Source of the DNA: Haliotis cracherodii
Taxonomy: Eukaryota
Direction: 5' to 3'
DNA: 64,000 bases
Assembly (NCBI RefSeq): GCF_022045235.1
Contig: NW_027266341.1
Coordinates: 7,626,001-7,690,000 of the forward strand
The position numbers were made by a program, and so were the translations under genes. Below the pieces are notes generated by a model that was not told the DNA's origin, did not search any database, and saw only the letters and a list, made by a program, of their open reading frames with translations. This document shows, in pieces, positions 20,440 through 44,241 of this stretch (positions are counted from its first letter, which is position 1; each line of letters begins with the position of its first letter).

Positions 20440-21480
20440 AATTTATTTAGGATTCATGACTTCATTACTTGTAGATACACGATATATGCCATTGTTCAAT
20501 TTTGGACATGTGACACCTGTCTTTTATTACTTGTAGATAAATGACACATATCATTGTTCAATTTTGGTCATGTGACACCTGTCTTTTAATACTTGTAGAT
20601 AAATGACACATATCATTGTTCAATTTTGGTCATGTGACACCTGTCTTTTAATACTTGTAGATAAATGACACATATCATTGTTCAATTTTGGACATGTGAC
20701 ACCTGTCTTTTATTACTTGTAGATAAATGACACGTGTCATTGTTCAATTTTGGTCATGTGACACCTGTCTTTTATTACTTGTAGATAAATGACACATATC
20801 ATTGTTCAATTTTGGTCATGTGACACCTATCATATATTACTTGTAGATACACGATACATGCCATTGTTCAATTTTGGACATGTGACACCTGTCTTTTATT
20901 ACTTGTAGATATATGACACATATCATTGTTCAATTTTGGTCATGTGACACCTGTCCTTTATTACTTGTAGATATATGACACATGTCATTGTTCAATTTTG
21001 GACAAGTGAAACCTGTCCTTTATTACTTGTAGATACATGATACATGCCAATGTTCAATTTTGGACATGTGACACCTATCAATATTTAGTTGTAGATACAT
21101 GATACATGCCATTGTTCAATGTAAGACTTTAATCACCAGTCAATGGTGAATATGAGACACAAGATACCTCAGGCTGTTAGTATTCAATTTTAGACACCTG
21201 TCATTTATTACTTGTAGATATATGACACATTTCATTGTTCAATTTTGGACATGTGACGCCCGAAAGATTTTTACTTGTAGATACATAATACATTTCTTTG
21301 TTCAATTTTGGACAAGTGAAACCTGTCTTTTATTACTTGTAGATACATGATACATGCCATTGTTCAATGTAAGACACAAATCACCAGTCAATAGTGAATA
21401 TAAGACACAGGATACCTCATGCTGTTAGTTTTCAATTTTGGACACGTGATGCCCGTCATTGATAAATTGTAGACACATGG
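20440..21480. repeat. 62-bp minisatellite (two ~31-bp subunits) in the gene A 3' region
   Basis: acttgtagat recurs at 20529, 20591, 20653... Confidence 0.93.
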
Positions 21481-21522: not shown

Positions 21523-22055
21523 TCATTGTTCATTTTTGTTCAAATGTATAACAATCGCTTCTGGTCTCACATGCAGAATGTGCTTCCGACTGACACTCGT
21601 GTCTCGTGATGCTGTTTCACGGTGACGCGTCTTGTCTTTGACAGAAGCTAGCCATCTTGAAATGACCGCCGACAAGTCCACCAGAAATATACTCCCAAAA
21701 ACCAAAGTTAGAAACGCACCACCGATGTACCCAATACCTGCCGCGGACAGACGAGTGTCTTGAATACTCACAAACTTTCTTTTGGATTTCGACGTCATGA
21801 TCGGGTCCACTGTAAGCTGCTTCTTAATCTCTTTTGCCTTTTCTTCCACTTCTTCAATTGTGATGTTCTTGCAAGTACATTGACACGCATTTGATTTACT
21901 TGTGACCTTCACCGTTGAGGTGACTTTTACCTTGACTGGTACGTCGCGAACCGTTGTTGCCCAGTCTTCTCTTGTGACCCGTGGGTCAGTAGTGACGTCA
22001 TCATTTACAGACGCTGTAGTTTCTGCAGCTAATGTCGGGGTGACGGTTGTAACGT
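21523..22055 (-). CDS. Gene A last exon: Thr-rich stalk, CxCxC juxtamembrane module, TM helix, cytoplasmic tail
   Basis: Within ORF 21523-22167; tttcaag|AC GTT; CQCTC...[36 protein letters not shown]. Confidence 0.85.
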
Positions 22056-22358: not shown

Positions 22359-25300
22359 AGTCCGGACTGATGCCGATTTATTGTGCAAGCCCACTTAGAT
22401 ACCATGCCGCAGTAGTACCATCTTTTAACGTCTTTTGGTATGGCGGAGCTGGGGATCGAACCCAAGACCTTCTGCTCACTGGGCAGATGGTCTACCACTA
22501 GACCACGGAGGTGGTGATAAAGTTGGCAGAAACAACATGGAGGCAAGTGCACGCATCAACAAAATAATGTTGTGGTACTCCGTAATAAGTCATACCAAGG
22601 CGTGCTTGACATAACCATAACCGCGCTGTATTACTATTACATACATCGAAGGGACCTTCGAAGAAGGCGGGTAAGTTTGCCGATAACCTCTTGTTTTCGC
22701 TCAAGTTTTCTTCCCGCTTTTCCTTTTTCCGAACACCTACACTTTTAGCCATTGCGTTAGGGTAGTGAAGTTGGTGAGCTGGCATCAAACATGGTGTCGT
22801 ACAGTAATTTTAGTTAAATTTCTCTGGAGGTCTACCACAAACAGTAGACACTACCATGATCGTTCGTCATTATGATTATGTGTTAAATAAATGTCAGCTG
22901 AAGTTCACACAAAGCACACGAGTTTCACATAAATGGATCGCCAGAACGGAAACCGTTTTAAAGATAAATATTAGGCCTCATTTTGTCGAGTTGACACGTG
23001 CATTCATTATGATGTCTGGAAATGGATTATGTCATCACGCATAAAGGGAAGCCTGAATCTTGTAAACAAAGGTGTGTGGTATTGTATTTGAAAAGAACAA
23101 ACAGACAATGGCAGGTACAGAGCAACGCGTTATCGATTTATCGATTTCCGATTTCCTTTCAGCACCAGCAACGTCTGTAGTCTTAAATAAATAGTACAAA
23201 TGACTGCGACCTCTACTCGGATCACATTGGGTGATGACCATTGACACGTCTTTTTTAAGTTGTCATTCGACCTATGTGTATATACTTTATATAAAATAGT
23301 ATCAAGTTGTACAATAATCCAACAATGACGAGGAGAATTACTGAGTCGAAGTGTCAGTCAGCACGACTCAAGACATAACAGGTAGATAAATCACACTACG
23401 CAAGACAACAGGTAGATAAATCACACTACACAAGACAACAGGTAGACAAATCACACTATACCAGACAACAGGTAGACAAATCGCACTACACAAGACAACA
23501 GGTAGACAAATCACACTACACCAGACAACAGGTAGACAAATCAAACTATACCAGACAACAGGTAGACAAATCGCACTACACAAGACAACAGGTAGACAAA
23601 TCACACTACACCAGACAACAGGTAGACAAATCACACTATACCAGACAACAGGTAGACAAATCGCACTACACCAGACAACAGGTAGACAAATCACACTACA
23701 CCAGACAACAGGTAGACAAATCGCACTACACCAGACAACAGGTAGACAAATCGCACTACACCAGACAACAGGTAGACAAATCGCACTACACCAGACAACA
23801 GGTAGACAAATCACACTACACCAGACAACAGGTAGACAAATCGCACTACACCAGGCAACAGGTAGACGAATCGCACTACACCAGACAACAGGTAGACACA
23901 TCACACTTCAACAGAAATCAAGTAGACAAAACACGCTACACCACATAACAGGTAGACAAATTACACAAGCCCTCACAATATGTATATTGGCCACCACGCG
24001 CCTGTGGTCAGGTATGTGAAGCTGGCCAAAATTATTTTTTTATACCTAATAATACTAACATTACATTAACATGTATATTTCCCTGATGCATATTTCTGCT
24101 TTGATTCAATAGTGATCTTTTCTACGCATCTGTTGTCTACATCGGTGAGCATGACTGTTCCTGTGTCCCAATATGCTGGGAACGTACATGTTAAACAATA
24201 GTTTCGGACTGACTCAGTTGTCAGTCCCTGACAGATGTAAGTCAATCTAACCCGACGTTGTCTTGGAGAGACGCTGACAGTTACCGATTGTCCTAACTAG
24301 ACCATGACAAAGACAGTTTCTTGACTGGAAGTGGTGGAGCAAAGTTGATTCAGTCCTCGATAATAATTATATATCCATTCTGTTATGATAGATATCCTGG
24401 AAGAATTTGCCAGTTTGCTTTCTTTAAGAATTGACCTCACCATCGCCATATCAACATTCTCTAACTTAGCAATTATTTCTATCGCTCGTAATGGAAATTT
24501 GATTTAACAGTTAACTTTAACTTCGTGCCTTATTAATCGGGCGGGAACCATGGTGGCAAATAGATACAGGGTTTTATAATAGAATGGAGAAATGATACAC
24601 TGCATAACCGAGGATGAGTTCTTGTTTAAAACAATCATTTAGCACATAAACTTCGTCAAGGAGGCGATGGTAACTGTAAGTGCACAGAGACTAAACTGTT
24701 AGATACAATGTACAAAAGAACTGTTGAGGGAAGGGATGATCTTACCCACGAAACATCTTTCTCCTGTGAAACGAGGTGGACAGATGCAGGTGTAGTTACC
24801 GACGAGGTCTTGACACGTGCCTCCATTTCCACAAGGTTCGCTCACGCAGTCGTTGACCTCGTCTAGGACAGATTATCGGGTTACTGTTATGCTTAACAGT
24901 ACTTCACAGTATGAAATCAAATTAAAGCACTACACTGTACGTTCAATGTTATTTATGTTGTGTTATTCATGTTGAGCGCCGCCGTCAGTGTCCATCTGTT
25001 TCACGGCGGGCTGCCTATTAGAGAGTCTTGGCCGGACAGACCAGTGGTTTATTCACGGATTCACGACAAGCATGGGGTACTAAATATTTATCCTGATCCC
25101 GAATTCCAAAGGGTGTTATGATGTTAAAGTTTATTTCCAAAAAAAATAATTAAGTGAGTGCGTGAATGTTTTGTTTTGGCAAATCAACCATATTCCAGCC
25201 GTACCGCAACAACGTTCATATATACGATATTGGGTAGCAGTGGTTGATATTTGATCCGTGACACAGATCTTAAAGGTATTCTTAACTAATTTGATTATTA

Positions 25301-28300
25301 ATAAGGAGTGTGGGGGGTGGTGTGTAGCCTCATTTGGAATATGACAAGATGGCAAATTATTATTGTGATCCAGAGAATCCGCAGTTATACCCAAGTGAGC
25401 ACCAAATAATACCAATATCCAATTTTCCAAATGGACATTTACACATTAGTTTCTCACCGTTTTCACAAAGTAGGCCGTTGAACCCTGCAGGACAGTAACA
25501 GCGATAGGAATCCCCAGATTCGTAGCAAGCTCCACTGTTTTCACAGGGAGCAGAGTTGCAGGCATTCCTCCCTGCAAGATAAGTCCAGTACTGCATGAGC
25601 GTTTGTTATCCATAACACAATAGGGAGATTGATTCACATGCGTCTTATAACTGAAATCACAGGCGGTTAATCTTCCAAAATTTTCGATCTAAAATATGTT
25701 AATTTTTAGAACATGTCCAGGGCAAAGCCCGAACCAGATAGTAAATATATTACCTGAAAAGTTGTCAAGAATAATTCCAGCCAGATACCCATAAGCTTTG
25801 AAGGTTATGAGGCCGTGTACCGTGGCTCCGAATCCTTTCCCGTTACGATGCGCTAAGGTGAGTTCCCCTTGTTCAACAGATTTGGAAGCAGTTGTCATGT
25901 CACACCCAGGGATGTCATGGAAGGAAGACTGTGGCATGAACTCCAAACCAGAGCTGTCATTTTTGGCCACAAATACTGACACATAAGGAACCAGGACATA
26001 CCCAGGGGTACTGGAAGATGTGATCAGATCCAGGACGTACCTGGACGCGTATCTTTCAACCGGGGGCATGATGGCCATGAAAGGATCTCCTTCTAACGCA
26101 GATCCATCAGCAACCTGCCCCTTTGCAAACTGCACCACCATGACTGGCTTGTTGCTTGTGATACATCTGTAATCCGTCTGGGTAAAATCCAAATCCTTAA
26201 AGGTCCTTGCGGACAAGATGTGTCTGGTACCGTCTGATTCGAAGACCACAGTGTCATGCTTTTCAGCAACAATCCGATACACAACACCGCACTGGCGACC
26301 AGCGATGGGGCCCAATGCATACTTCTTCCCGAATGCATACGTGGGGATTAGCATTTCAACGAGATTGTCTGGGAACTCCACCTTCTTTGGAACTTGGGTG
26401 AGAGGATTCCCAGAGAGGACAGCAACTGGTTTAGTTGCCTTGATTAGAGTACCAGTGATGTCTCGATCACAATACACACGCACTATATCCATCATCTGCA
26501 GCCGGAACGTGAGGATCGCTCCCTGCACCAGGCGCGTGCTGTTGCAGCTTGCTGTGGTGCTCAGTGTCACGTTGACAACGGTGTCGTTTTCTGTTGCAGC
26601 GATTATTACATGGCCTGAAAGTAAATGAATATTTTTCACGTCAAAGTTTCAAAGTAAACTATGTAAACTCATTCTCAGGTTTCGTCATGTGGTTTTATAT
26701 CTGTGATATCACTGTAAGTTCTTTTTATATTTGAAACAACAAGAGACAAAATTGATTGCCAAGTGTTCATTTCACTGTTCTGAGAAAGGCATTGTTTATG
26801 TGCCATGAAACAGCATATTGTTCTCACTGGCAGCCTGTGATTCTCCTGTATCACTACCAATGCCCTTGGAAGGCCTAACCAGCACACACTCAGGGTGTTG
26901 CATGGTCACTTCCGTGTTCACACATTACCAAGGCTTTATATTCATGTGCCAATAGAGGAACATTTAGATTATTAAAGAATGGCATGACATGTGGTTAGTG
27001 AAATGTGCAATACACAAAAATAATCAAAACCATACCCAAGGTAAAACGTTTAACTATTCATTGCTTGACATACTAACTATTACCAATGGGGCCTGCATGC
27101 TCCCATCCAGATGTATAACACAGTAGGTTTATCTCCATTCTACCATGACGGCAACAACGCTTTGAAAACTGCGCTCTCTTGTGCACAGGTCCGCAATCTT
27201 AGAACTTTCCGAAAAGTGGTCACAGGTAGTTAAATATGTAACAACTATTACTAAAGTTCAAGATTAAAAACACCATAGTCGTGAGTAAGTCATAATACGT
27301 GTTCAAATAATAAATTGTACACTGTGGACTGACTGTCGTTTTTCGGAATTTTGCGCATTTCTTGGAAATCGAACATGCCATCATTTCTATTGTAGGGGTG
27401 ACGGGTAATAGAAAAAGGTTTTAAAATGCTAAACGAATATAATTCTACAGCAAACTTTATGAATTAACATTCTATTATACATTAAACATGTGTAAGTGTT
27501 ATTAGTTAGTTAGCAATTTCCCCCAGTAAACAATGATAAAATCAAAATAAATGCCTCGATAAATGCCACCCCGAACTTCGAAGTGGCAGAACTTGACCTA
27601 CATCACGGTTACTCACACCTCAAAGCTGTCAATGGCTGACAATCTTGTGTTTATATTCTCCGTAAGGAGTTATAGAATGAAGCAAGATGACAACCCCGAT
27701 CTATGATGTGGTTCAACATTAACAGGTAGATTATCTGGGATTGATCGAGCCTGCTGGTACATCTATATGATTACTGAGTATGACTGAACAGCCGCTTTAA
27801 AGGCTTCAAACGAGCCGGATATTTTGAAACGAGGAATCTGCATGGTGTGACCTATTAATTTCAAGATTTCACGGATCCAAAGCCAAATAGTGAGAGAACT
27901 TAAGACATTTGTGTCCCAGAAATAGTGGATCGTGTATGATTTTCTTAATTGTGCGTGTTCTGAAATGAATTTCATCAAGTTTGATAAGCTGTTACTTCAG
28001 TTGGGACATTGTTTTCGTGGACTTTCGAAGGGGAGTGTTTTCTGATGGACTTTCAAATCCCCTCCTGCCAAATTCTAACGGTGGTGGTTGACGGAGATGG
28101 TAATGGATATCGATCAGAAAAAGAAAAAAACATGTTGTCATGAATAAAGTTTTTTCAAACAATTTTTAGAATGTTATATTTTACTTTCATTGTCGGTTGT
28201 TTCAATGAGGAAATAGTTTAAATTGTTCCGATTCTGGTCACCATAGAACATTTCTCTTACAATTTCATAAACATTTCATTTGTATGCAAAGGATATGCCT

Positions 28301-29971
28301 TCGTTAAATCTTTTAATGTCATAATCGAAGCAGTCAGGGTTGCGGCCTAGAACGCCCCAAACATCCGATATCAAAAAACCGTATTTCCTTTATTTGACGC
28401 TACACCATCTATTAATTTCGCGAGAGCCCTTGATTCGGCGTGTATTAGAGACCTGGCTGGTATTAGAGGAAATAAAGATTAATTTTACAGTTTATATGGG
28501 GGCGATCGATCGGCAGCCATTTTTTATAAATCAATATGTAGGCTTTCTATGTATTCATGCGCACATTTTTTTGTGAAAAGGCTTAATATACATGTATTTG
28601 AAAGGGGTTTCCGTAGCAAAAAGGAAACCTCTTTTTAACCAATCAGAATCAAGCATTCATCAATGTCATGGTAGAATATACAATATAAAACGACTACGAA
28701 CGGTAATGCTAAAAAGGATGTTCACATAAGAACTTCATCGCTTTCCTCCAAGGGAAATAAGGTACACCTGAGGTTAAATAGTAAGTTCGAATAATCCGTG
28801 TTTGGAATTCGTAAGTTCGAATAATCCGTGTTTGGAATTCGTGCCATGTGCCACGCAAATGTGTGTTGTCCCTATTAGGATGCGGCTTAAATAATGTTTA
28901 TAAGCGACATCAAAAAGTCATTCAATCATGCTCACCTCCTGCACCTGCGTGACTGTAATAGGTTACTGCAATGTATTCGTCCGACAGCGTATTTACAGGT
29001 AGAGCCAGAAATCCATCCATTGCATTGTACTGATTCACGTAGCCGTACACTGACACCTTGTTTGATGCTAAGATGTGGATAGCCTTTCTCTCCACCGCCA
29101 TGTTCGAAAACACCGTGGTCTGATAAGGGAAGTAAATATGTCGAGAACTTCCGGCAGAAAGGAAATGTTCAGTGTCATTTTCCCCGTCCATCATAACGTA
29201 GACTTTGACGTCCGTCTCTGACGTGATTACCAGGAGATTGACGTTGTCATTTGTACCGCTGTCGGGAAATGCTACGATGAAATTAGTTCCTTTCTGGTCT
29301 ATTTGTACACCACAAATACCTGAAATATATGCAAAACATATTCATGCACACGCGCGATAGTATTCAGTTAGCATACAATGCAAAGTATGAACAGTATTCC
29401 AGTTATATCATGGCATGTCAGCTTGATACGGGAGTACCTCTCGAAGTGATTCATGCCTCAGACGTTTACCACTTCGGTGAAAACCACGAGCAAGGGTATG
29501 GTACATAAAAACCAAGAAATATAATCAATGTGGTAATTTGCATCACAGTATACAAAATCATTTAGTTATAATGACAAATTGTCACCTCACACGAGGGGAA
29601 ATTAATAAAATTTAATATATTCTGCATTGAATATTAATGTATACAAATTTGTTGAATGATTTGACCCATTACTGAATGACATTCACTTTTTAACAGTACC
29701 AAATGCACCAAAAGCACGAAGGGCTACTCCATGTCATCCGAACTGTGAGTACATGGAGCTATACACCTACCTCGGATAATAGCTTGAAGAACCGACGTAG
29801 CCACAACCATTTGTACCTAAAATATAATTCTAAAAATCAATTTACAAATTGTAAACATATGATAAATTATTGTGAAGAACTAACCAGATATATTAAAACA
29901 GTTATATGAAATGCGTATCAACAGCTTGAAAATTGACACAGACAGAATTCCTAACTTACCAAATAGAACAT
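21523..29971 (-). CDS. Gene A: IgGFc-binding (FCGBP N-terminal-like) domain + 2 EGF + TM type-I membrane protein, ~688 aa, 7 coding exons
   Basis: Exons 29960-29971, 29771-29816, 28936-29319, 25754-26614, 25458-25571, 24746-24862, 21523-22055. All introns are GT-AG, phases are compatible, total 2067 nt = 689 codons. Starts [20 protein letters not shown] (signal-like), then [44 protein letters not shown] (IgGFc_binding motifs). Confidence 0.85.
22250..22517 (-). mobile_element. SINE family C with internal deletion and (CA)n
   Basis: TSD taaagttggcaga. Confidence 0.85.
23370..23960. repeat. 30-bp minisatellite (~19 copies) in gene A last intron
   Basis: ccagacaacaggtagacaaatc[a/g]cactaca. Confidence 0.97.
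24746..24862 (-). CDS. Gene A exon 6, calcium-binding-type EGF domain
   Basis: [38 protein letters not shown] read directly (too short for the ORF track); ctag|AC...G|gtaag. Confidence 0.9.
25458..25571 (-). CDS. Gene A exon 5, EGF domain
   Basis: [36 protein letters not shown]; phase 1-1, 114 nt. Confidence 0.9.
25754..26614 (-). CDS. Gene A exon 4, IgGFc-binding domain core
   Basis: Within ORF 25689-26639; [11 protein letters not shown]...[18 protein letters not shown]...[10 protein letters not shown]...GDPFM...AYGYLAG; canonical splice sites. Confidence 0.92.
28936..29319 (-). CDS. Gene A exon 3, N-terminal part of IgGFc-binding region
   Basis: ttcag|GT ATT TGT...; [13 protein letters not shown]...[15 protein letters not shown]...[15 protein letters not shown]; ends G|gtgag. 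Confidence 0.85.
29771..29971 (-). CDS. Gene A exons 1-2 (29960-29971 MFYL; 29771-29816 [16 protein letters not shown]), signal peptide
   Basis: ATG TTC TAT TTG|gtaagt; tttag|GTA...CGA G|gtaggt. The 46-nt phase 0->1 exon has the same size as gene B exon 2. Confidence 0.65.
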
Positions 29972-31330: not shown

Positions 31331-31779
31331 ATGTCTCTTGTTGTTCATCACAGTGTAAGTATACTAGCCATTATTATTAGAGATGCCCATATTTCATATT
31401 TCACAACTGTGTCTTGAATTCAAATTTCGATGTGCTTCTATACTGCATTGATAGATGCTGTTATGAGACGTGCATATTCTTCTGTTATTCAGATTACTTT
31501 TACAAAAATGTATGTTTAACGTCGTATTTATTAAGTTTTATATACTAGGGGCGTATGGCCCCTATGGAGTTCTTGAAATAAATAATAAACTTTGACTGCC
31601 AACTTTCAAATTTCGTGATATTGTGGACAAGAAATGTGCTTGGTGGACCATTTTTACTGTCCCTTATGCCAAACTTTACATTGTTCACAAACATTTTGTT
31701 CCATTTCTTAAACATACCATATTATCTTTGCAGGCAACAATTCTTCTACTGATGTCTTTAATGTTGGAACTTGGAAATG
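31331..31779 (+). CDS. Gene B exons 1-2 (31331-31354 MSLVVHHS; 31734-31779 ATILLLMSLMLELGNG), signal peptide
   Basis: ATG...AGT|gtaagt; ttgcag|GCA...AAT G|gtaagt; hydrophobic leader. Confidence 0.7.
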
Positions 31780-34700
31780 GTAAGTTACATTTGTTTTAGT
31801 ACATAAACAGTGAAATAAATTGTTGCGCCGAATGTAATTGCTTCGTGTATTACGTATTACGTTTGTTAGGCGTTTGCAAACGCCATAATTATTTTCTTCA
31901 TTACATATGTTTCAAATTAAATTACAGGTGGTTTAAACAACAACGGCAAAGAGTTTGTCCTGACCTTCATGGATAGTCTACGCTACAATTATGACCTTGA
32001 ACTTTTCATTGCCACGTCAGAGGAGACGGAGGTCAATGTGAACGTCACGGCCCCAAAATGGCCATTGGCCAATCTAGATCAATCGTTTACAATAAGATCC
32101 GGGGAGGTAAAGCAATTGTTTATATCAAATTCATTGCGAAATATTGGTACAGCTATCTCAGGTAAAGGCATATACGTGTCTGCTGATAATAATATAGTGG
32201 TGTACGGTGTCAATAAAGAGGACTATTCCAACGATGCTTTCCTAGGCTTACCAACTGATGTCCTAGGGAACCGTCACTTCACTGTCAGCTATTCACCGGC
32301 CTTCAGAAAATGTGAAGTTGTCATTGCAGCAGTTGAGGATGACACAAGTATTCGAATCAAGCTCCCTGTATCCGACCCAGCCGTCAGTGTCAACTACCAA
32401 GGACTGCTTTATGGAAATGGGGGCGTGATTAACATTGTCCTGGATCGGTTCAGTACCTTCCAATTTCAAAGTGTAGGCGACTTGACAGGATCTCGAATAG
32501 ACTCAGATAAACCCGTGTCCGTCTTCAGTGGGAACATGAAAACCAATATCGGGACAGGAAGTACCCAAGACCACCTAGTTGAGCAGATACCACCAGTTGA
32601 GGCTTGGGGTAAGCGGTTCGCAACAGTTCCAACCCCTTATAGAACTACAGGGGATTACTTCCGGTTCATAGCCAGCGAGGATGACACTGTTGTGAACGTT
32701 ACAAGACATGGAACCCACAGCTTAGCTAACGCAGGGCAATATCTTCAACTCCTCATACCATCGAATGAATTCAATCTCGTCTCCAGCAACAAGGCTATAC
32801 TGGTAGTGATGTTTGTCCTCAGTCAGTTGACCCAATTTGACGAAGAAGAAGCTGATCCGTCCATGATTCTGATCCCTCCTATACAGCAATGGGCGTCTGA
32901 CTACACATTCGCAACACCTAAGTTTTCATTAGGGTCATATGAGAACTTCTTCATGTTGGCCATCGACTCTGTGGAGACTTCTGGGCTGATGCTGAACGGC
33001 AGGCCAATGGTTCCTGAAGGCAACTGGACGTCAATTCCCGGAACCAATCTTGTAGGCGCCTTCGTGTCTCTTCCAGAGGGGGTACACAGGGTCCGACACA
33101 TCTCCCCTATTGTCTTATTTGCTGGCTACCTGTATGGAAAAGCCTTATCAGAAACTTATGGATTCCCCACAGGGATGAGACTAGCACCAATAAATGCGGT
33201 AAGCACTGAATTGCTTTACAGTAATTTATTCATTTTCACTTTTTCACTATTGTTTTGGGTTTTAGCCCCGGCAGAAAATTGAGACGTTATATATTTATAA
33301 GAGATCCTAGAGATTTCGATGAGTCACAAATTCAAACAAAATTTAGATTTAAGTATTTCAAATCAAATTTACTTCAATGAGCTTAAGAACAGTTGTCGCA
33401 CAAAAATGGAATCATGACGTAAGTTAACCCTGATGCAATCTCGATTTAAAAAACTGATCTCAGTTATATACTTATCATCTTAATTCAGTGACCATTGCGT
33501 GTGATTTCAATGTAACAGTCTTGAACCAGTCCACAGCATTTCAGGACTTACATCAAATATTTTTAAAAATCTGGACTTATTTCGACTCATCGTTATATTT
33601 GAATGCTAACATGATAATTCTTCAACATCAGTTTTGTTAATTATCCATGAGCAAAGGAGCTTACGGACCTAACAATATCTCGGTATAACCGAAAGGCACA
33701 TATCTCGTGTCAGACACATCTGGATTTGTCATCAGTGCGCATGGAATAGGACGACGTATCACTTTAACCGATGTCGTTATATACGGACTTGACTGACTTA
33801 GTTCTGATTACCAGTATTATTTAAAAATATATACTATTTCTTTCCTTTTTGTTTATTGATCCCTATTTGGATATAAAATCACGTTAATATTTTGGACATA
33901 ATATCAGATTCTTATATGTTCTCCTTAACTCCTTGTTCAAAACCATGAAATAATTTTATGTATTGATATAATACTTGGTCTTGGTAATGCTAATTGCTCC
34001 TTCCTATGTTTGGCGTTCTCTGTTTACCAATCCCTATGGAGAAACACAACACAGATATAATATATGATTCATGGTTATGTAAATAAATAATCCTTACTAT
34101 TACAATTTTACCGCAGTTGTGTACGGCAACTTCATCTACGGACGGAGACGGGGTTGACAACGACTGTGATGGTTTCATAGACGAGGAGCTGTGTTTACCG
34201 GGGGATGATGGTAGGAACTTTTGTAAACATACAACTTAGGTAAACAAGTATAGACATATTGAGTGGTATACAGTCAAACCTCGTTGTTACGAACTCGTGG
34301 GGACCTGGAAAAAATCGACTTATCCGGGCTTTCGAGAGGTTAGCAGAATTTTATGCTTAATTCAGATACTTTTGACTCCCAAATGAGTTCGAGACAACCG
34401 TGTATTCGACACATCCAAGTTCAACACAACGAGGTTCGACTGTGGTGCCAATATCTTATATATGAGAATGAGTCAGTGAGTGGTGTTTTACGCCAATTTC
34501 AGCAATATTCCCGCAATATTACAGCGGGGAACACCAGGGATAGGATTCATACACTGTATCCATAGTCGGGAATCGAACACGGTTTTCAGTGAAACGAGCG
34601 AACGCTTTAACCACTAGGCTTCTCCACCGCCAAAGTAATTCAAAACCTACTTTATTTGTCTGTAAACTCAAAGGTAATGAATTAGATCAATCTAGCAGTT

Positions 34701-37700
34701 GATGATTGCCCTAATTGTGTCAATTTGACTAATTTCAATGCCTAGACTCTACTGAAATTTGGTAACAGATCAAGGCGATAGCTCATTTTCAATCCAATTC
34801 GACATATTAACAATAAATAGTCAATCCTAAACAATAAAAGTTAGACCAACGCTGAATTCTGTGTGTGATACGGAACCCTGATAACAATAATCGAGTTTGT
34901 CTTTATTAAACACACAGTTCATTTTGTTGTCATAAAGTACGGGTTCTCAATATTTTCAATATTTCTGTTATCCGGTTATCATAGAAATGCTATTAATGTC
35001 ACGTATATACAATTCTTAGTTTCAAACGTTTCCAATAACGTCATATTACCTCTGACTGTGCGGTGTGAGCGAGTGATATAGTAACAGTTTTTCAGTTAAA
35101 TCACGACGTGGCACCTTACTGGTGGAGGGAAGTCTGCGCGAGGTTCATGTAGGCCGTTGACCATTAAACAACCTAAACAATAGACAGCTACGCCTTTGTA
35201 GACAAGTAAAGTAAAGGGGGACATCCTTGCTTCATGCTGACAGCATGGATAGCATGATGTGCCATCGACCATGACTCACTTGCTTGAGAGCATTGCATGG
35301 ACACAGGAGAACCAATGTCTCTGTCCTTGCTGTATACGAAACTGTTCTGTTATGAAGATAAAACGGAAACACCGATATACTGATATGGTAATGATCTATT
35401 GAAGGTAATTCTACTCCTCGGAAGGGGCGGTCGGGTGGCCTAGTGGTTAAAGCGTTCGCTCATCACGCCGAAGACCCGGGTTCGATTCCCGACATAGGTA
35501 CAATATGTGAAGCCCATTTCTTGTGTCCCCCGCCGTGATATTGCTGGAATATTGCTAAAAACGGCGTAAAATCATACTCACCCACTCTACTCCTCGGTGG
35601 TCATAATCCATTATCTTTGTGTGGATAGCGACTTTGGCCTATACCGAAGTTATATAAATGATATTGTGGATTCATTATAACCGGAACTAATCTTCATATG
35701 AAATAGATGATGACGACATGGATGGTTACCTGGATGAGGACTGCGCCAAAACTATTCCAGGTAAATGTTTTCAAATGTTAAAATGACTTCAAGCCGATTT
35801 CTCCAAATGAAAGGTATAAGGACCCGTTTCAGTCAGCAAGATGTCAAATTGCATAATTTAAGAATGAGCAAAAGTGCAGAAATTTTACATCGCGAATTCG
35901 AATAAGAAGAATGGGATATAACAACAATGTTCAACATTTGCAAATTTTGGACATTCAACAACATGAAATGTCGAGGTAAGGATGAAATATAAAATACTAT
36001 AATTAAAAAGGACAAATAAGCTTATTTTAGGGGTATTATTAGATTCTTACTTGTGTAGATTTTAGAATTTCTCTCGATGAGATATCGTCTCTTTTAACTC
36101 ATTTAAGCCATTTCTTGTGTCAGTCATTTGAACATGCTCAATAAACGTCATAACAAAGGTTCTCTTAATTTTGAAGTTTGACATTTCCAGCATGCCAAAA
36201 CGGGCCCGTATCACATCCTATGTTCCTGGAGGCCTAAAGACGCCGCCTGTGACCTGTGGGAATATTTTGACATTGATAAAAGGGTCGAATACTTTGAGAC
36301 GTGCGCCAATTGAATTGTAGTATTTATACACTCCGGTTCGTTAATGGTTTATAATGTAAAAAAAATCCATATTCTGATTTTGACATTGGTCAATGTTTTA
36401 TTTGTTTTGTAAAAGTTGAACAGAATTCAGATTTTAATGTTTTACCTTTCACCGTGCGAAGATATCGGTTATGAATAATTTCAAGTACATTCACATTGTG
36501 TAGTCTTAAACATAATCATATCAATAAATGAACCGATTTATGGACTACATTAGCATAGAGCTCTCACAAAGAGGTCATTGGAGGTAAGAAAATAATTATG
36601 TGTGCGGTGAGGGTGGATGCGTTCAGTGTGTGAAAAAAGCACCCTAAACATTATTTTCAGTATATTTACCATGTATTTTAATGTCGCGTTGTCGCGCTTT
36701 AAAAAAATGAAGCAAGTGTTAGTTTTTGCTCCTTAATGTGGAACGAAAAATAATTTCACAATTCACAATCGATATACAATTTGAACGTAAAAACTAGATT
36801 TCACAGATTCTCACACACAAATACAGGATACCAGGCAATCCTTTATCCATCCATCCATTTTAATCTCCGAATTTTTGCCATCAATGTCAAATTACCTTTA
36901 CAAGCGGTGACAAATGGTGCACGTTTGTGTGCCGTTGTTTTAAAACTGTGATGCTTCGACTTTTTCTATGGGCCTAACGGATTCGACAATCTGTCCTTGC
37001 TTCCACACAGTTGACGGTTTCTGGTCTGACTGGGGTGCGTGGGGAGACTGCAGCCAAGACTGTGGGGAGGGGATGCAGACCCGTACAAGATCGTGTGACG
37101 CTCCCGCCCCAGCCTTCGATGGTCAACCGTGTGCAGGAGACAATAACGACACTCAACTATGTGTAATCTCTTCCCCGTGTTACAATTCGGCATTAGGTAA
37201 TATAACCTGCGTTTAAACACTAACTTTATTGCACCGTTTTTCAGTGAAACCCTAATCGTCAGGACTAACACATGCCAGCATTAACGAATCGTTAGTTAGT
37301 CCCCTCAGTAAATACATAATACCTCCTAACAACATACTGATTTTTCCACATAAATATAAACCGACCTAACGGGATTTCTATGCATGTTAAGTACATATAA
37401 GTCATTAATTTTGGACTGGTATGATACCAGGTTTGACGTTTGGAGATAAATGACATCGTTCAGTATTTACCATATCTGCTTTTTCTGGACACCATCATAT
37501 CTTTTGTGATATACATTACTCTAAAGAAGTACAAGAACATCTGATTCCTTCATATGACGATACTTAATCAGTCATGGATTATACATAGGAAAATGAAAAG
37601 ATCGGGCATAACAGATTAACTATTATATTGATAGAATCCGGTGTTCTTTAACTTCTTTGAGTAGAAAACCATAACCTGCAACGAAACTTACCAGCTTTAC

Positions 37701-40178
37701 ATTCTTGTCCTCACATGTGTGTGGTAAATGTTGCAAATCGGTCATTCAGATCATAACTCCCTAACACCGTGGATCTGTATTCATCATGAGGAAAATGTAT
37801 CCCTTCCTTATCATCACGCTTGGTGAAAATTACTCTTGTATTCCCAACATATATGTGGTAAGCGTCTGCATATAACCTTACACTTCCAGGTACCTTTTAC
37901 AGATCTTTACAAGACCAGGCGGTTTCGTCCCTTCCAGAACCTCCTTTTGCTTCAGTGCCTGAGTTGTTTGGAAACAGTGATGTCATTTCGACAACCGACA
38001 GAGATACAAAGTATAACACTGAGATGCGCACGCATGTATTTGAGACTGGGGAGTCTCAATCCTGGGCAGTTGCAGAATCTGGACAAAGCGAGCTCATGAC
38101 TTCAGTTGGTTGGGATGGATATTACCCCACGTCAGTGTCGACACAGAACACTGGGTCGTATAGGTCTGAACGTTCATTCCCTAGCCAAACGGGAATCATC
38201 TCATCTCTCAGTGGAGACGCTTATCATGACGCGGATATATTGATACATCCAGAAACAGACAGGACCATCGTTGGGAACGTGCTTCAGACAGTAACTGTGT
38301 ACTCTTTATCTGCGTCGCATCAAAGTAGTCTGAGATCAAACGGTATAGAATCACTAGATGCGTACCCTTCCCCAAATACGATGAGTAGATCGGTCAGTTC
38401 GATGAAATCACCCCATGATCTTAGAACGGACGCCTTTGGAGAACTTTCGTTACATACTGGAGATGTTCGCAGAAATACACACTGGGAAATGTCATTTGGT
38501 GAAGTTTCATTCTCGGGTACATCTGTAACATATTTCACATATAGCGACAGGTATGCCACTACTAGACTCGATGGTCACAGTACTGTTGAGGTAAACGAAC
38601 TGTATCCTACCCCCGTTGCTGAAACTTTATCAAACAGTTTTGGAGTGGAAGAAACAGACATCTTGAAACCAATCTCCAGTGGGCTTGTTGATGTGTCTCA
38701 GTCCATCGCTCAGATTACAGAAACTCCCGCTGCTGTCATCAGTGCTGAAAGTGCTCATATTGTCACATCTGGTCCTTGCACTGTCAGCCATGGTGCAGAA
38801 GCACCATCCCCATCTTCATCGTTGGTAAGGGTTCCACTTTGTTTGTTTTCACGCACTGTGATGTGACCAGTGTGAAGTAGGATTTTCGCCGTTGAAAGCA
38901 ATACGACAGCAGTGTGATAGCAAATACAACCTTAGATGACATAGACTGGTACTTGGCAGAAGTACTCCTGTACGGCGTCAGACCATAAACAGTTACTTTT
39001 TAAGAAAAGAGGTGGGTGCATCCTGTAGGAAAGGTCATGCCTATCCTTTTCGGGAACATCTGGTGTCATCACTGATTTTCAGTAACCAACTCATACACCG
39101 CTATTTTTCTTTTTACGCCCAGTAGAACTTGTTTCGGCAGATAATCGAGCCTGGTTATTATCTGACATTGACGTTTGTTATTTACCACAAGTAACACCAA
39201 AAATAAAGCGACTAATAAATCTGACATATTGTAATTTTTACAACTCTGACACCAAATATTCCCAATAAAAAGTGAATCGTATCCCACGCGAAGCAGCCTT
39301 TCTGACACATTTTAGCGTTACCCTTTTTCCAAAGTTTAATATATGAATATAATCATTTTTTCACTTCTAATTTCCTTCGTCATCGATTCTTATGAATGTA
39401 TACTCCTCCATACAATGAACGCGAATGCATTGTATTGTGGCATTTGTTGGATTCATTGAATGGATCAACGGAAAGCAGCTGAATTATCACCTGTGACACA
39501 CGATGCCACCGTATACACCAGCTGCTGGTGTGGACATGATATGTCAAAGGCCAAAGCCATCTGCAATTAGTCGACTTCATGTATACAGTTCAATGCTCAT
39601 ACACTTAACACTTTCCATCTCCACGATGGAGGCGTGACAGGCCTTTGGCTCAAAATCCTGCCTCACACATGCGGGTCCTCGCCGCCTTGGCTGAAATCCT
39701 ACGCATATCTGGTATGGCGGATGTTCAAGAGGCTGTCGTGGTGGTCTGTACGTAACGAGCCATTGTTATTGGCTCTGGTGGTCTCCGTATGTGGGAAAGT
39801 CATTTGTTGTCCGATGGTGTTGACCTAATCCTCTTACTTCTTCTCCAGCAAGCAAAGTCTCCTGTGCGGCGTCTGTTATCCTCAAGCTGTATATGTCCGT
39901 GCTCCAAGATCACCAATCTGAACAAGGATGAACTGGATGAAGTGACAAGGAGAATTGGGCAGAGGCTTGCTTTGGATAAAGCCAACCTGTCCGCTACTAT
40001 CAGGAAGCACATCAGTGTCTGGGACGCAAGAAGTTCCTCCCGGACAATAGGAGTAGTTGGGGTCAGTCTCATCATTGGGGTCATCTCCGGGGTCATCCTG
40101 CTGGACGTTGGAGCACTGTTCAGAGACTTCAAAACTCTCTACAGAGACGTGAGGACCTTGTGTGCTTCTAAGGTTTGA
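31331..40178 (+). CDS. Gene B: IgGFc-binding domain + acidic DNDCDG repeats + TSP1 + Ser/Thr stalk + TM type-I membrane protein, ~979 aa, 8 coding exons
   Basis: Exons 31331-31354, 31734-31779, 31928-33198, 34117-34210, 35707-35760, 37011-37196, 37890-38824, 39849-40178. All GT-AG, phases compatible, 2940 nt = 980 codons. Confidence 0.85.
31928..33198 (+). CDS. Gene B exon 3, IgGFc-binding (FCGBP N-terminal-like) domain
   Basis: NNGKEFVLTFM...SNDAFLGLPTDVLG...DLTGSRIDSDKPVSVFSGN...DHLVEQIPPVEAWG...ADPSMILIPP...TYGFPTGMRL; ends GCG|gtaagc. Confidence 0.93.
34117..34210 (+). CDS. Gene B exon 4, DGxDNDCDGxxDE (MopE-like putative metal-binding) motif
   Basis: ccgcag|TTG TGT; LCTATSSTDGDGVDNDCDGFIDEELCLPGDD; G|gtagg. 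Confidence 0.85.
34271..34442. mobile_element. pogo/Tigger-like MITE
   Basis: TA|cagtcaaacctcgttgt ... acaacgaggttcgactg inverted termini; related remnants at ~43350-43436 and ~44830-44916. Confidence 0.7.
34470..34632 (-). mobile_element. SINE family A, diverged
   Basis: Homology to consensus. Confidence 0.75.
35422..35585 (+). mobile_element. SINE family A
   Basis: TSD tctactcctcgg. Confidence 0.92.
35707..35760 (+). CDS. Gene B exon 5, second acidic DxDGxxDEDC motif
   Basis: aatag|AT GAT; DDDDMDGYLDEDCAKTIP; G|gtaaat. Confidence 0.8.
37011..37196 (+). CDS. Gene B exon 6, thrombospondin type-1 (TSP1) repeat
   Basis: VDGFWSDWGAWGDCSQDCGEGMQTRTRSCDAPAPAFDGQPCAG (WxxWxxW, CSxxCG, RxRxC). 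Confidence 0.92.
37890..38824 (+). CDS. Gene B exon 7, Ser/Thr-rich low-complexity stalk
   Basis: 935-nt open frame bounded by ttccag|GT and TTG|gtaagg; phase 1->0 joins the TSP1 exon to the last exon in frame. Confidence 0.7.
39849..40178 (+). CDS. Gene B last exon: CxCxC juxtamembrane module, TM helix, short tail
   Basis: ctccag|CAA GCA; CICPC...IRKHISVWDARSSSRTIGVVGVSLIIGVISGVILLD. Confidence 0.87.
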   Translation, partial: QAKSPVRRLLSSSCICPCSKITNLNKDELDEVTRRIGQRLALDKANLSATIRKHISVWDARSSSRTIGVVGVSLIIGVISGVILLDVGALFRDFKTLYRDVRTLCASKV

Positions 40179-41559: not shown

Positions 41560-42430
41560 ACAACTTGTCATAAATTTGATTTCTTAAGGCCAAAATGGTT
41601 GTTCAAATTACTGGGATGAACAGGTTTACCTTTTGTTAACTTATTAAGAGATGTTCAAAAGGAGAAAACCATCCGAGAGGTGGGAGAAGAAAAAAATCAA
41701 CACATAGAGACACCCGGTCATTGTTGAAACTTGTAAGTGTAAAAGAAGGAAGTCTTTACATGATAGTTCCTCACTACTTAACCCGTCATCACAAGTGACT
41801 CCATCAAAGTGGACAATACAAAGGCTTTTACATGGAAATGGTTACCGGAGACGGGTAGTCAAAAAGAAAACATCTCCTCTCAAAATCGGTTCAAGCGGAG
41901 GGCCTTTCGCTAGATCCCATCTACACTGGACTGTCAAACAACATTTTTCCGAAGTTATATTTGCAGGAGAAACTCGGGTTGCAGTAGGTGAAGATCAGAA
42001 AGTTCAGGTTTGGAGAACTAATGAAAAACAGTGGAAGCCGAGATGCCTTGGTGTGAACAAAGAACTGAGTGACATGTTTTGGGGCTGCGTTTGTTTTAAA
42101 AGGTGTTGGTACCACTGTGGATGGTCATCAAAAGCCATCATATGGCCAGTTATTGCCAAAGTTCCAACTGACAAAGGATGTCTTTTTCAAGAGGATAATT
42201 GCCCTGTAGAGAAGCAACTCAGTGGAAACACGACAATTATATTCAGACTATGATATCGCCCCGAGTCCCCAGACTGTAATATCATAGAAGATGTGTGGAG
42301 AACTCCGAAGATTAGGCTGACGAGACAGTTACATGAAATCAAAACCAAACAGGACCTCATTGACCAGGTTATTGACATCTGGACGTCATTGACTACAGAG
42401 TACTTAAAGCCACTATATGCCAAAGAGAAT
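41560..42430 (+). mobile_element. Decayed Tc1-like transposase
   Basis: TIQRLLHGNGYRRRVVKKK, HLHWT, VIFAGETRV, MFWGC, FQEDNCP, PESPDCNIIEDVW. Confidence 0.8.
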
Positions 42431-44241
42431 GTGACAGGTACTCTTGGCAAATGTCTGCATTTACTAATAACTTCATTTTCACGTAACGTAATAATCTGTG
42501 ATCACAATCAAAGCAGTTTTACGGCGGCCATTGTGTGAACTTAATATGGCACCTGAGTGCTCCAATGATTACAAGAGTGTGAACATTGTCTGGTTATTGT
42601 GACCATATGGCTGCATACAATTCTTTTATCTAATAATGTAGCATATACTGTTTGAAATCAAGCAAGGAATAAAAACATTTGTTGTTTGACATCGTGTATA
42701 TTCCCTCAAGAATCACCAGCTACCATCATTTTACATACGACCTACACGAAACGACACTATTAATGATAACACCTCAAGTATGAAAACACATTTCGTCAAT
42801 GTTAATACAACAGATTACCGGTATTTGGCCGGAACGTACAACACCACGGCATGCCATGACGCCATGGCGCAGTGGATGACGTCACAGGTGTCCACGACAT
42901 TTGAACCGATGGAAATAGGAATGCAGAGAAATCCACTAAGTGTTCACACGTTTTTGTACGTTAGAATACTACGCTAGATATTCTTATAACGGAGTAGACA
43001 CCAATTCGTTCTACGAACTGTTTTCGGCCCTGTAAGCAATTTGGAACAGACCAACCAGTGATTGATATTATGAGCAACGTCTCACGACGTCGGAGTAGGA
43101 TGGCACACAATCTACCAAGCCATCAAGCCCAGTAACCCGAGCAATTTAGTCGCCATTTACAAGCAGAGATAACCATCATACCTATCCTCTGAGATAACAT
43201 CTCGTTCGTGACATATTGTGTATATATTCCCGCCAGTAACCATATACATGCGCTGAAACAACGCTACCATACCTGTCATAATATATGGCCTTAATAAGAT
43301 AATACACAATTCTGGTAGGTAATTCGTAATGAGCATATATACAGCATGTATACAGTAAATGGCCGGGACTAAAAAACATTTCGTTATATCCGGCAGGTGG
43401 TTATAAGCGTGTTCGTTATGAACGTAGTTTACTGTATATAGTTAAGGTGATGGCAAAATAACTCGTCGGTCTCATTTTGGAGAATCTAAGAAGAGTGAAC
43501 AAACCTACACGACTGATATACATATCGATAAAATTGAAAACAATATGATCTCAGAGTATGTAAGAAAACAGGAGGAATTAAACAGAGCATCATCAAATGG
43601 TTCATAGTGTCATGGTTGAATGGAATATAACATCCATTTAGCGGTGCCAACTTTTAACGGTTCTATTAATTTGATAGCTTACGCTGACACACTCAAATTT
43701 AAAGAAAGTTTCCATAACTGAGGAACCAACCAGAAGAGTATTTTGCATGTAGCTTTTCAATCCCTTCCTGAATATTGTACACAGTCATCTCGGACATAAA
43801 GAAATTCACTTTGAACACAAAGTAATGGCCACATTCCGAGCATCACAGTGGTTTATATTTCTATTAAGATAGATCTTTCCGTGCTGCATCCAATGTAAGG
43901 TGTATACGACACATTTCTTTCGTTTTCAACACAGTTTAATAATCAACTCATAACCTTTTTTTCAAATTCTGTGCTGAAAGGCGAAAAAGTGTTTTCCTGA
44001 TTTTTGCGTATACCGACAAAATATAATTCATAATCTGATACAAATTTGGTTGTACATGAATAGTGATGTTTTAATGTGTTTTTAAACTTGTGTACTAAGT
44101 TTTACATCTACGCTTTTGAATACATAAAATATACAAAAATATATTGTGCTAAGATCACTTTCAGAATTCAGAATAAAATACAAGGTTTTAAAAAGTCAAT
44201 ATTTTCTAAATGTCACCAGTTCTTCACTAAAATGTCCAAAT

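What the first reader, a model, noticed from the sequence alone, without database searches (positions are those of the whole stretch)
21640..21895. Unnamed conserved juxtamembrane domain CxCxC...RKxxSxxDxRxS...IGxxG-TM-D shared by both genes
Seen: A = [56 protein letters not shown] (39888-40110) = CICPC..DELDEVTRRIGQRLALDKANLSATIRKHISVWDARSSSRTIGVVGV..ILLD. The spacing of CxCxC, the amphipathic helix, (V/L)D, S, RK, S, D-x-R-x-S, IG-x-x-G and the post-TM Asp is kept while the flanking stalks are unalignable. I cannot assign it to a named Pfam domain. Inference: a lineage-restricted anchor module encoded on one terminal exon. It could mediate disulfide oligomerisation (CxCxC plus coiled helix), convertase/sheddase cleavage (RK..R|S) or small-xxx-small TM dimerisation.
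Basis: partly seen in the sequence, partly recalled or inferred. Interest (0 to 1): 0.72.

Follow-up and report, generated by a model that had tools for sequence, protein, structure and literature searches.

The report
Shared membrane anchor of mollusc receptors
Two neighbouring abalone cell-surface genes end in the same unnamed, roughly 75-residue membrane-spanning piece, which recurs in about 1,500 protein clusters (every named one we looked up is from a snail or bivalve) under many different lectin-like heads, and which likely holds copies of each receptor together in the membrane.

Summary
Two head-to-head abalone paralogues (A: IgGFc_binding-EGF-EGF; B: IgGFc_binding-TSP1) end in the same module: three Cys, amphipathic helix, LxV..S..RK..SxxDxRxS(A/S), TM helix, invariant Asp, short amphipathic tail. 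A two-sequence profile finds 1,501 clusters at 50% identity. In the best 149, heads include IgGFc, C-type lectin, PAN, WSC, TSP1, kringle and Ig; all 26 named of 30 looked-up clusters are gastropod or bivalve. No match in Pfam, NCBIfam, PHROGs, PDB sequences or folds, or ten literature searches. R53, G60 and D78 are invariant at 38% median identity, spacing is nearly fixed across the membrane, and conserved TM residues lie on one helix face (p=0.0002-0.002). Best reading (0.5): a receptor-assembly module (disulfide-locked helical neck plus TM packing stripe) that clusters binding heads. Main rival (0.3): a docking site for one shared membrane partner. Convertase cleavage is poorly supported: furin motif in 2 of 156, Pro after the Arg in 80 of 153. 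'One terminal exon' is not general: a phase-0 intron splits the module in another animal. Oligomerisation and function are inferred, not shown; range outside molluscs is untested.

The parts
21676..21885 (-). Module copy A: CQCTC, N-glycan sequon, amphipathic helix, L32-V34, S40, R44-K45, S48, D51-x-R53-x-S55, TM helix (21735-21679) and invariant Asp
21523..22055 (-). Gene A terminal exon (phase-1 start): Thr/Val-rich stalk, module, 50-aa tail, stop
   Evidence: splice signals; H. asinina model P0005; not covered by the reads laid
24746..25571 (-). Gene A two EGF exons (25571-25458, 24862-24746)
25754..29319 (-). Gene A IgGFc_binding head (PF17517) in two exons (29319-28936, 26614-25754)
   Evidence: Pfam; contigs of two runs join the exons
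29771..29816 (-). Gene A 46-nt signal-peptide exon (phase 0 to 1); the start-codon exon was not located
   Evidence: matches P0005 N-terminus
31734..31779 (+). Gene B 46-nt signal-peptide-like exon (phase 0 to 1); the start-codon exon was not located
31928..33198 (+). Gene B IgGFc_binding head (PF17517), one exon
34117..35760 (+). Gene B Asp-rich four-Cys repeat in two small exons (34117-34210 and about 35705-35760)
   Evidence: tblastn of P0004; splice signals
37011..37196 (+). Gene B TSP1 exon
37890..38824 (+). Gene B Ser/Thr-rich stalk exon
   Evidence: covered by contigs
39849..40178 (+). Gene B terminal exon (phase-0 start): module, 23-aa tail, stop
   Evidence: one contig (run X2, record 19) joins 38823 to 39848
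39888..40106 (+). Module copy B: CICPC, helix, L32, S40, R44-K45, S48, D51-x-R53-x-S55, TM helix (40047-40103), invariant Asp

Best explanation
The stretch is a conserved membrane-anchor domain shared by a large family of mollusc single-pass surface proteins, and it likely works as a receptor-assembly module that holds two or three chains in register. Shown: the order head - Ser/Thr stalk - three Cys - amphipathic helix - polar motif - one TM helix - invariant Asp - short tail, with near-fixed spacing from L32 to D78 and many different heads. Predicted: three helices without a compact monomer fold. Inferred: the Cys cluster forms interchain disulfides, the heptad helix zips into a parallel neck, the S/R/D motif forms a polar collar at the outer membrane face, and the A56-G60-G63-(L67)-I74-D78 stripe packs helix against helix, so that low-affinity lectin-like heads are displayed in clusters above the glycocalyx.
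For: Family size and mixed heads. Invariant R53, G60, D78 and 91-98% S40, L32, R44, S48, D51, S55 at a median pairwise identity of 38%, while other A=B columns are only 9-63% kept. L32-R53 spacing 21 in 156 of 156; R53-D78 spacing 25 in 152 of 156. Conservation moment in the TM peaks at 96-98 degrees, p=0.002 and 0.0002 in 20,000 shuffles; positions 53, 56, 60, 63, 67, 71, 74, 78, 82 lie within a 100-degree arc. Small residues at 56/60/63 in 150, 153, 153 of 153, at 64 in only 21. Helix 18-32 amphipathic (peak 99 degrees, p=0.0003), hydrophobic at the 4-3-4 positions 21/25/28/32 in 128 of 149, 125 of 152, 148 of 153, 153 of 153. Three or more Cys in 124 of 136 untruncated rows, exactly three in 80 of 103 strict CxCxC rows and in 21 of the 33 others. 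AF2: pLDDT 88.5 but pTM 0.46; extracellular part 78.1 and 0.38. Analogy: in matrilins, cysteines just before a coiled coil link the chains covalently (PMC2427018, passages).
Against: No experiment. A one-face TM stripe and a low-pTM monomer fit a foreign partner equally well. Invariance of polar residues over so many paralogues is easier to explain by one common partner than by self-packing. Cysteine parity of whole ectodomains is mixed (9 odd, 12 even of 21), so an unpaired Cys is not shown. 12 of 136 rows have fewer than three Cys, 2 have none. Coevolution gave only local pairs. The a/d residues do not point to one oligomer number. Only the best 150 of 1,501 clusters were seen, which favours close matches to A and B.
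Confidence: 0.5

Rival explanations
1. The module is a plug for one shared trans-acting membrane protein (a signalling adaptor, multi-pass partner or processing/sorting enzyme): the invariant S/R/D collar, the Gly stripe and D78 are read by that partner, giving many short-tailed heads one output. This can coexist with self-assembly.
For: Absolute invariance of R53, G60, D78 (never E, N, S or T at 78) and fixed trans-membrane spacing. Tails are short (median 22 aa; 118 of 154 at most 40 aa) and share no Tyr motif (YxxPhi in 33 of 132), so any signal needs a partner. Precedent: immune receptors assemble with DAP12/FcR-gamma through one ionizable TM residue (PMC1440944, abstract).
Against: No partner is known or was found. 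The charged residues sit at the two membrane faces, not inside the hydrophobic stretch as in KIR or FcalphaRI, and the flanking TM face is conserved, which those receptors do not need. It does not by itself explain the Cys cluster and heptad helix.
Confidence: 0.3
2. The RK..S..D.R.S stretch is a conserved cleavage site (convertase, sheddase, rhomboid or self-cleavage at S48) that releases a disulfide-linked ectodomain into mucus or haemolymph.
For: A dibasic pair in 138 of 156; the stretch is a loop between helices right above the membrane; S48 is replaced only by Cys (6) or Thr (1) in 153 rows; the TM starts with a Gly-rich segment.
Against: Furin motif R-x-K/R-R in 2 of 156, RxxR in 11, site-1-protease-like R-x-hydrophobic in 64. 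Pro follows R53 in 80 of 153, which blocks trypsin-like cutting (recalled). RK lies in a predicted helix. Cleavage does not explain D78 or the TM stripe. No strained domain for self-cleavage is present.
Confidence: 0.1
3. The conserved residues serve membrane geometry or trafficking only: basic collar binding lipid head groups, D78 capping a surface-lying amphipathic tail helix, or a dileucine-type sorting signal.
For: Tail helix is amphipathic (peak 103 degrees, p=0.00015); Pro/Ser/Thr/Gly are common two residues after D78.
Against: DxxxL[LI] in only 23 of 154 and flush with the membrane. Capping or lipid binding normally tolerates substitutions that are never seen at R53 or D78.
Confidence: 0.08
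4. The likeness is only a relic of the duplication that made genes A and B, or a chance TM match.
For: A and B are paralogues with alignable heads and matching 46-nt signal exons.
Against: 1,501 clusters, unrelated heads, two mollusc classes, invariant positions at 38% identity.
Confidence: 0.02

Closest known systems
Matrilin C-terminal coiled coil with preceding cysteines (PMC2427018, passages; Pfam Matrilin_ccoil recalled)
   Same: Cys cluster directly before a heptad helix, joined to varied extracellular heads
   Different: Matrilins are secreted, have two Cys and a longer coiled coil, and no polar collar, TM or Asp; no sequence or fold match came up
Immune receptors that assemble with DAP12 / FcR-gamma (PMC1440944, abstract)
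   Same: Many divergent heads, short tails, an invariant ionizable residue associated with the TM
   Different: Here Arg and Asp lie at the outer and inner membrane faces 25 residues apart, the TM face is conserved, and no adaptor is known
Small-xxx-small TM association motifs and lectin neck regions (glycophorin A, DC-SIGN, collectins; recalled)
   Same: A/S-xxx-G present in 150 of 153; helical neck that would cluster lectin heads
   Different: Third small residue at i+7, not i+8 (no glycine zipper); type I topology with the neck next to the membrane; no homology found
IgGFc-binding protein (FCGBP) N-terminal domain proteins, PF17517
   Same: Heads of genes A and B are clear members
   Different: The module is separate from this domain and occurs without it; A and B have no vWD/C8/TIL repeats and are membrane-anchored
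Biomphalaria single-pass receptor clusters GRC, PTC2, LG5R (PMC7494358, PMC13712769, passages)
   Same: Clustered, short-tailed snail TM1 genes with lectin-like or unknown heads
   Different: The passages read describe no shared juxtamembrane module; PTC2 genes are said to lack homologues outside gastropods; their sequences were not compared here

Membership tests
Any Pfam family (module itself) | Profile hit above the gathering score on the module | tested here: not met
   No hit for A or B at E<=10 on the module; no family shared by more than 5 of 101 members at E<=1, none significant on the module; none in 149 relatives
NCBIfam / PHROGs families | Profile hit above cut-off | tested here: not met
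   7 module proteins: none for A or B, only weak unrelated hits for others
PANTHER, CDD, SMART, InterPro, HHpred databases | Profile or profile-profile hit | not testable with these tools
   Not held; source names of 26 clusters mention no such domain
Matrilin-type disulfide-locked coiled coil | Cys cluster directly before an amphipathic heptad helix | tested here: met
Matrilin-type disulfide-locked coiled coil | Sequence homology | tested here: not met
   Not among Pfam or PDB-sequence hits
Matrilin-type disulfide-locked coiled coil | Fold match | tested here: inconclusive
   Not listed in fold searches; only generic helices
Matrilin-type disulfide-locked coiled coil | Interchain disulfides and defined oligomer | not testable with these tools
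   Needs biochemistry
Furin / proprotein convertase substrates | R-x-K/R-R (or RxxR) conserved at the site | tested here: not met
   2 of 156 and 11 of 156
Small-xxx-small TM dimers | Small residues at i and i+4 on a conserved helix face | tested here: met
   150 of 153 and 153 of 153; conservation moment p=0.0002
Small-xxx-small TM dimers | Measured self-association | not testable with these tools
   Needs TOXCAT/GALLEX or FRET
DAP12/FcR-gamma-associated receptors | Basic residue inside the hydrophobic TM stretch | tested here: not met
   Columns 59-77 are hydrophobic or small; R53 lies six residues outside
DAP12/FcR-gamma-associated receptors | Associated ITAM adaptor | not testable with these tools
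   No genome held for the window; no partner data
GPI-anchor signal | Hydrophobic C-terminus without a cytoplasmic tail | tested here: not met
   TM is followed by Asp and a basic tail of median 22 aa
IgGFc_binding (PF17517) head of genes A and B | Pfam hit above cut-off | tested here: met
   219 bits (P0004) and 174 bits (P0005) against cut-off 25.6; window exons

The most novel reading that the evidence does not exclude
The module is the common plug of an undescribed mollusc receptor system: hundreds of lectin-, PAN-, WSC-, IgGFc-, TSP1-, kringle- and Ig-headed surface proteins dock, through an invariant Arg-Gly-Asp stripe that spans the bilayer, on one shared membrane adaptor or processing enzyme, a mollusc counterpart of the DAP12/FcR-gamma logic built from unrelated parts.
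Probability: 0.25. Interest if true: 0.82.

Novelty: new variant of a known kind. Interest (0 to 1): 0.57.

Why it matters
Mollusc genomes hold very many 'uncharacterized' short-tailed single-pass proteins, and how they cluster or signal is open. This module ties at least 1,501 sequence clusters with unrelated heads into one superfamily that a single profile can find, and it hands over exact residues (three Cys, R53, G60, G63, D78) for mutation and pull-down. If it only oligomerises, it is a useful new domain family for oyster, scallop, abalone and Biomphalaria annotation. If it docks on a shared partner, it exposes a receptor-signalling route for aquaculture species and schistosome-vector snails.

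Tried and rejected
Complex prediction of three copies: no verdict (score 0.02, mark 0.32; alignment not used); this is no evidence either way. Fold searches: Foldseek PDB and viral, no match at E<=0.001; VIA wide, best Z 5.2 (rmsd 6.5, 65 aligned, generic long helices) for the whole module and 2.8 for the extracellular part; absence shows no new fold. PDB sequence search: 0 hits, and 4 chance hits at E 2.7-9.4. Word-index protein searches found only the two Haliotis models or nothing. ESM Atlas: three unnamed eukaryote clusters, commonest Mollusca, scores 0.92-0.95; no named cluster. Run search: no RNA holder listed on record; kinds are guesses. Coevolution (Neff 137): only local pairs such as 40-44, 6-8-10, 56-63. 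Cys parity: 9 odd, 12 even of 21, inconclusive. Tree of 46 labelled modules (86 columns; P0092 and unlabelled rows left out): labels cluster (10 changes against 19.5 shuffled), but one IgGFc clade is not rejected (p-AU 0.744), so repeated shuffling is not shown. Strict motif pattern: 0 viral matches, 1 prokaryote match and 4 of 15 metagenome loci are chance hits without Cys, helix or TM; the pattern fits only a small part of the family, so viral absence is weak. A per-genome copy count stays open because no genome is held for this window. Literature searches that found no description of the module: (77, 80, 92 were for analogies). Earlier scan findings: none bear. Rejected: GPI signal, furin site, dileucine signal, glycine zipper, paralogue relic.

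Full report
Observation. They align at 30% over 80 residues, E 7e-13. The local score is 113 against a maximum of 55 in 5,000 shuffles, and 78 against 49 without the TM. No third copy lies in the window. Numbering below counts from window position 39873 (first Cys of B = 6).

The genes. The window is abalone DNA: an NCBI model labelled Haliotis cracherodii (P0004, 965 aa) matches the large exons of gene B at 99-100%, and a Haliotis asinina model (P0005, 685 aa) matches the exons of gene A at 69-91%. Gene A (minus) is signal exon, IgGFc_binding (PF17517, two exons), two EGF, stalk, module. Gene B (plus) is signal-like exon, IgGFc_binding, an Asp-rich Cys repeat, TSP1, a 310-aa Ser/Thr stalk, module. 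They sit head to head, 1.9 kb apart, their heads align at 26.5%, and both have a 46-nt phase 0-to-1 signal exon, so they are old paralogues. Contigs from runs guessed to be RNA of related abalones bridge introns: one contig joins 38823 to 39848 (stalk exon to module exon of B), and contigs of two of the four runs join the two IgGFc exons of A. The module exon of A lay outside the stretch laid, so its splicing rests on splice signals and the P0005 model.

The family. A profile of A and B alone finds 1,501 clusters (50% identity) at E<=0.001 and 154 at E<=1e-10 among 1.84 billion representatives. Only the best 150 were returned; all counts below come from these: 153 module copies in 149 proteins, plus A, B and the A orthologue (156 rows). 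Pfam finds a head domain in 44 of the 149 (many others are short fragments): IgGFc_binding 17, C-type lectin 16, PAN 8 (4 with a C-type lectin), EGF 3, WSC 2, TSP1 2, kringle 1, Ig 1, ephrin-receptor-like 1; no family covers the module. Of 30 clusters looked up, 26 have a named member: 12 gastropod (Lottia, Haliotis, Littorina, Pomacea, Babylonia, Batillaria, Lymnaea, Physella, Biomphalaria) and 14 bivalve (oysters, scallops, Mytilus, Mya, Dreissena, Potamilus). The ESM Atlas gave three unnamed eukaryote clusters, commonest Mollusca, and no named one. The range outside these two classes was not tested. A crude hydrophobicity scan marks a signal-like N-terminus in 24 of 61 Met-start proteins of 280 aa or more, with the module near the C-terminus, in line with type I topology.

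Anatomy. Consensus: Ser/Thr stalk (median 40% in the 40 residues upstream), CxCxC, a linker of variable length that often carries an N-glycan sequon (101 of 156), an amphipathic helix, L32-x-V34, S40-xxx-R44-K45-xx-S48-xx-D51-x-R53-x-S55-(A/S)56-xx-I59-G60-xx-(G/A)63, a 19-residue hydrophobic stretch, D78, an amphipathic tail of median 22 aa. R53, G60 and D78 are invariant wherever the column is filled; D51 98%, S55 96%, S48 95%, R44 and L32 93%, S40 91%, at a median pairwise identity of 38%. Other columns where A and B agree are kept at only 9-63%, so the search bias does not make this pattern. Spacing is 21 from L32 to R53 in 156 of 156 and 25 from R53 to D78 in 152 of 156, but loose from the Cys to L32. 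Strict CxCxC occurs in 103 of 136 untruncated rows; 21 more keep three Cys in another spacing; 12 have fewer. AlphaFold2 with 101 sequences gives helices 18-32, 40-46 and 54-99, pLDDT 88.5, pTM 0.46; the extracellular part alone gives pLDDT 78.1, pTM 0.38. So the secondary structure is confident and no compact monomer is predicted.

Mechanism. Conserved TM positions fall on one helix face: the conservation moment peaks at 96-98 degrees (p=0.002 and 0.0002), and 53, 56, 60, 63, 67, 71, 74, 78 and 82 lie within 100 degrees. Small residues occupy 56, 60 and 63 (150, 153, 153 of 153) but not 64 (21), a small-xxx-small plus i+7 pattern. The outer helix has a 4-3-4 hydrophobic repeat (p=0.0003 for amphipathicity). 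Together with three Cys just ahead of that helix, as in matrilins where such cysteines link the chains (PMC2427018, passages), the simplest reading is a self-assembly module that clusters the heads (0.5). Every step from these patterns to an oligomer is inference. Against it: whole-ectodomain Cys parity is mixed (9 odd, 12 even of 21), coevolution shows only local pairs, and invariant polar residues in so many paralogues suit a single common partner at least as well. That rival (0.3) gains from short tails without a shared Tyr motif (YxxPhi in 33 of 132) and from the precedent of receptors that assemble with DAP12 or FcR-gamma through one ionizable residue (PMC1440944, abstract only), but here the charges lie at the membrane faces and no partner is known. 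Cleavage (0.1) fares poorly: furin motif 2 of 156, RxxR 11, site-1-like 64, Pro after R53 in 80 of 153; that Pro blocks trypsin-like enzymes is recalled. The Ser-to-Cys/Thr-only exchange at 48 (7 of 153) keeps it alive.

Exon claim. In A and B the module is uninterrupted, but the terminal exons start in phase 1 (with the stalk) and phase 0 (module only). In nine metagenome loci of one other animal assembly (L002-L006, L009, L012, L013, L016) an AG acceptor stands just before residue 43 in 9 of 9, and an in-frame GT donor after residue 42 in 8 of 9 (L009 is frameshifted), with introns of about 250-680 bases. L010/L011 hold uninterrupted copies. So 'one terminal exon' is not a family rule. The module tree (46 labelled rows, weakly resolved) shows heads clustering but cannot reject a single IgGFc clade (p-AU 0.744): head exchange happened at least five times by count of head types, more is not shown.

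Comparison with what is known. No Pfam, NCBIfam, PHROGs, PDB-sequence or fold assignment was found; PANTHER, CDD and HHpred could not be run. Searches of the open literature returned no description. I read passages of PMC6003135, PMC10140915, PMC12842671, PMC7494358, PMC13712769, PMC13619432 and PMC7333891: they describe expanded bivalve lectins, uncharacterised lectin-domain proteins and snail single-pass clusters with small tails, but no shared juxtamembrane module in the passages seen. Whole texts, supplements and subscription journals were not seen and could hold a mention. Glycophorin A, DC-SIGN and collectin comparisons are recalled.

Verdict. A real, large, apparently unnamed mollusc membrane-anchor domain. 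It works like known neck-plus-TM assembly modules by inference and is a member of none tested. New variant of a known kind; interest 0.57; the shared-partner reading (0.25) would deserve about 0.82.

Noticed in passing
window 29771-29816 (-) and 31734-31779 (+): Genes A and B are head to head 1.9 kb apart and both have a 46-nt phase 0-to-1 signal-peptide exon; the NCBI model of B starts inside it and so lacks a full signal peptide. A shared promoter is possible.
   Followed up: partly
window 34117-35760 (+); P0036, P0038, P0078, P0080, P0089, P0154: Asp-rich four-Cys repeat after the IgGFc head; relatives hit PF11617 (Cu-binding_MopE, putative metal-binding motif), two of six above cut-off. 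Possibly Ca-binding.
   Followed up: no
P0018, P0092, P0106, P0110, P0132: A clade near gene A swaps S40 to His and R44 to Thr/Ile together; strongest covariation signal.
   Followed up: partly
P0006, P0008, P0009, P0049: Four database proteins carry two modules; likely fused models of tandem genes.
   Followed up: no
L002-L006, L009, L012, L013, L016: Nine close paralogous loci in one animal assembly with a phase-0 intron inside the module and a four-Cys variant; L012 has further degenerate TM-exon copies downstream.
   Followed up: partly
L010/L011 253-302 and 1472-1521: Two identical uninterrupted module copies 1.2 kb apart on one contig (recent duplication or assembly artefact).
   Followed up: no
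window about 47781-59266 (-): Multi-exon sodium:solute symporter (SSF/SLC5) gene.
   Followed up: partly
window about 11860-12774 (-): Broken Tc1/mariner-type transposase (HTH_Tnp_Tc3_2 hit); similar remnants near 41700-42500 and 48400-49300 by eye.
   Followed up: partly
window 23377-23966; about 20500-21368: 30-bp tandem repeat (19.7 copies) in the last intron of gene A and a 62-bp satellite just downstream of its stop.
   Followed up: no
window 35423-35587, 29388-29502: Very high-copy short interspersed elements in introns (depth far above the rest in all four runs).
   Followed up: no
window about 60650-61550 (-): Looks like a non-LTR retroelement remnant (resemblance recalled; no Pfam hit for 61033-61551).
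   Followed up: no
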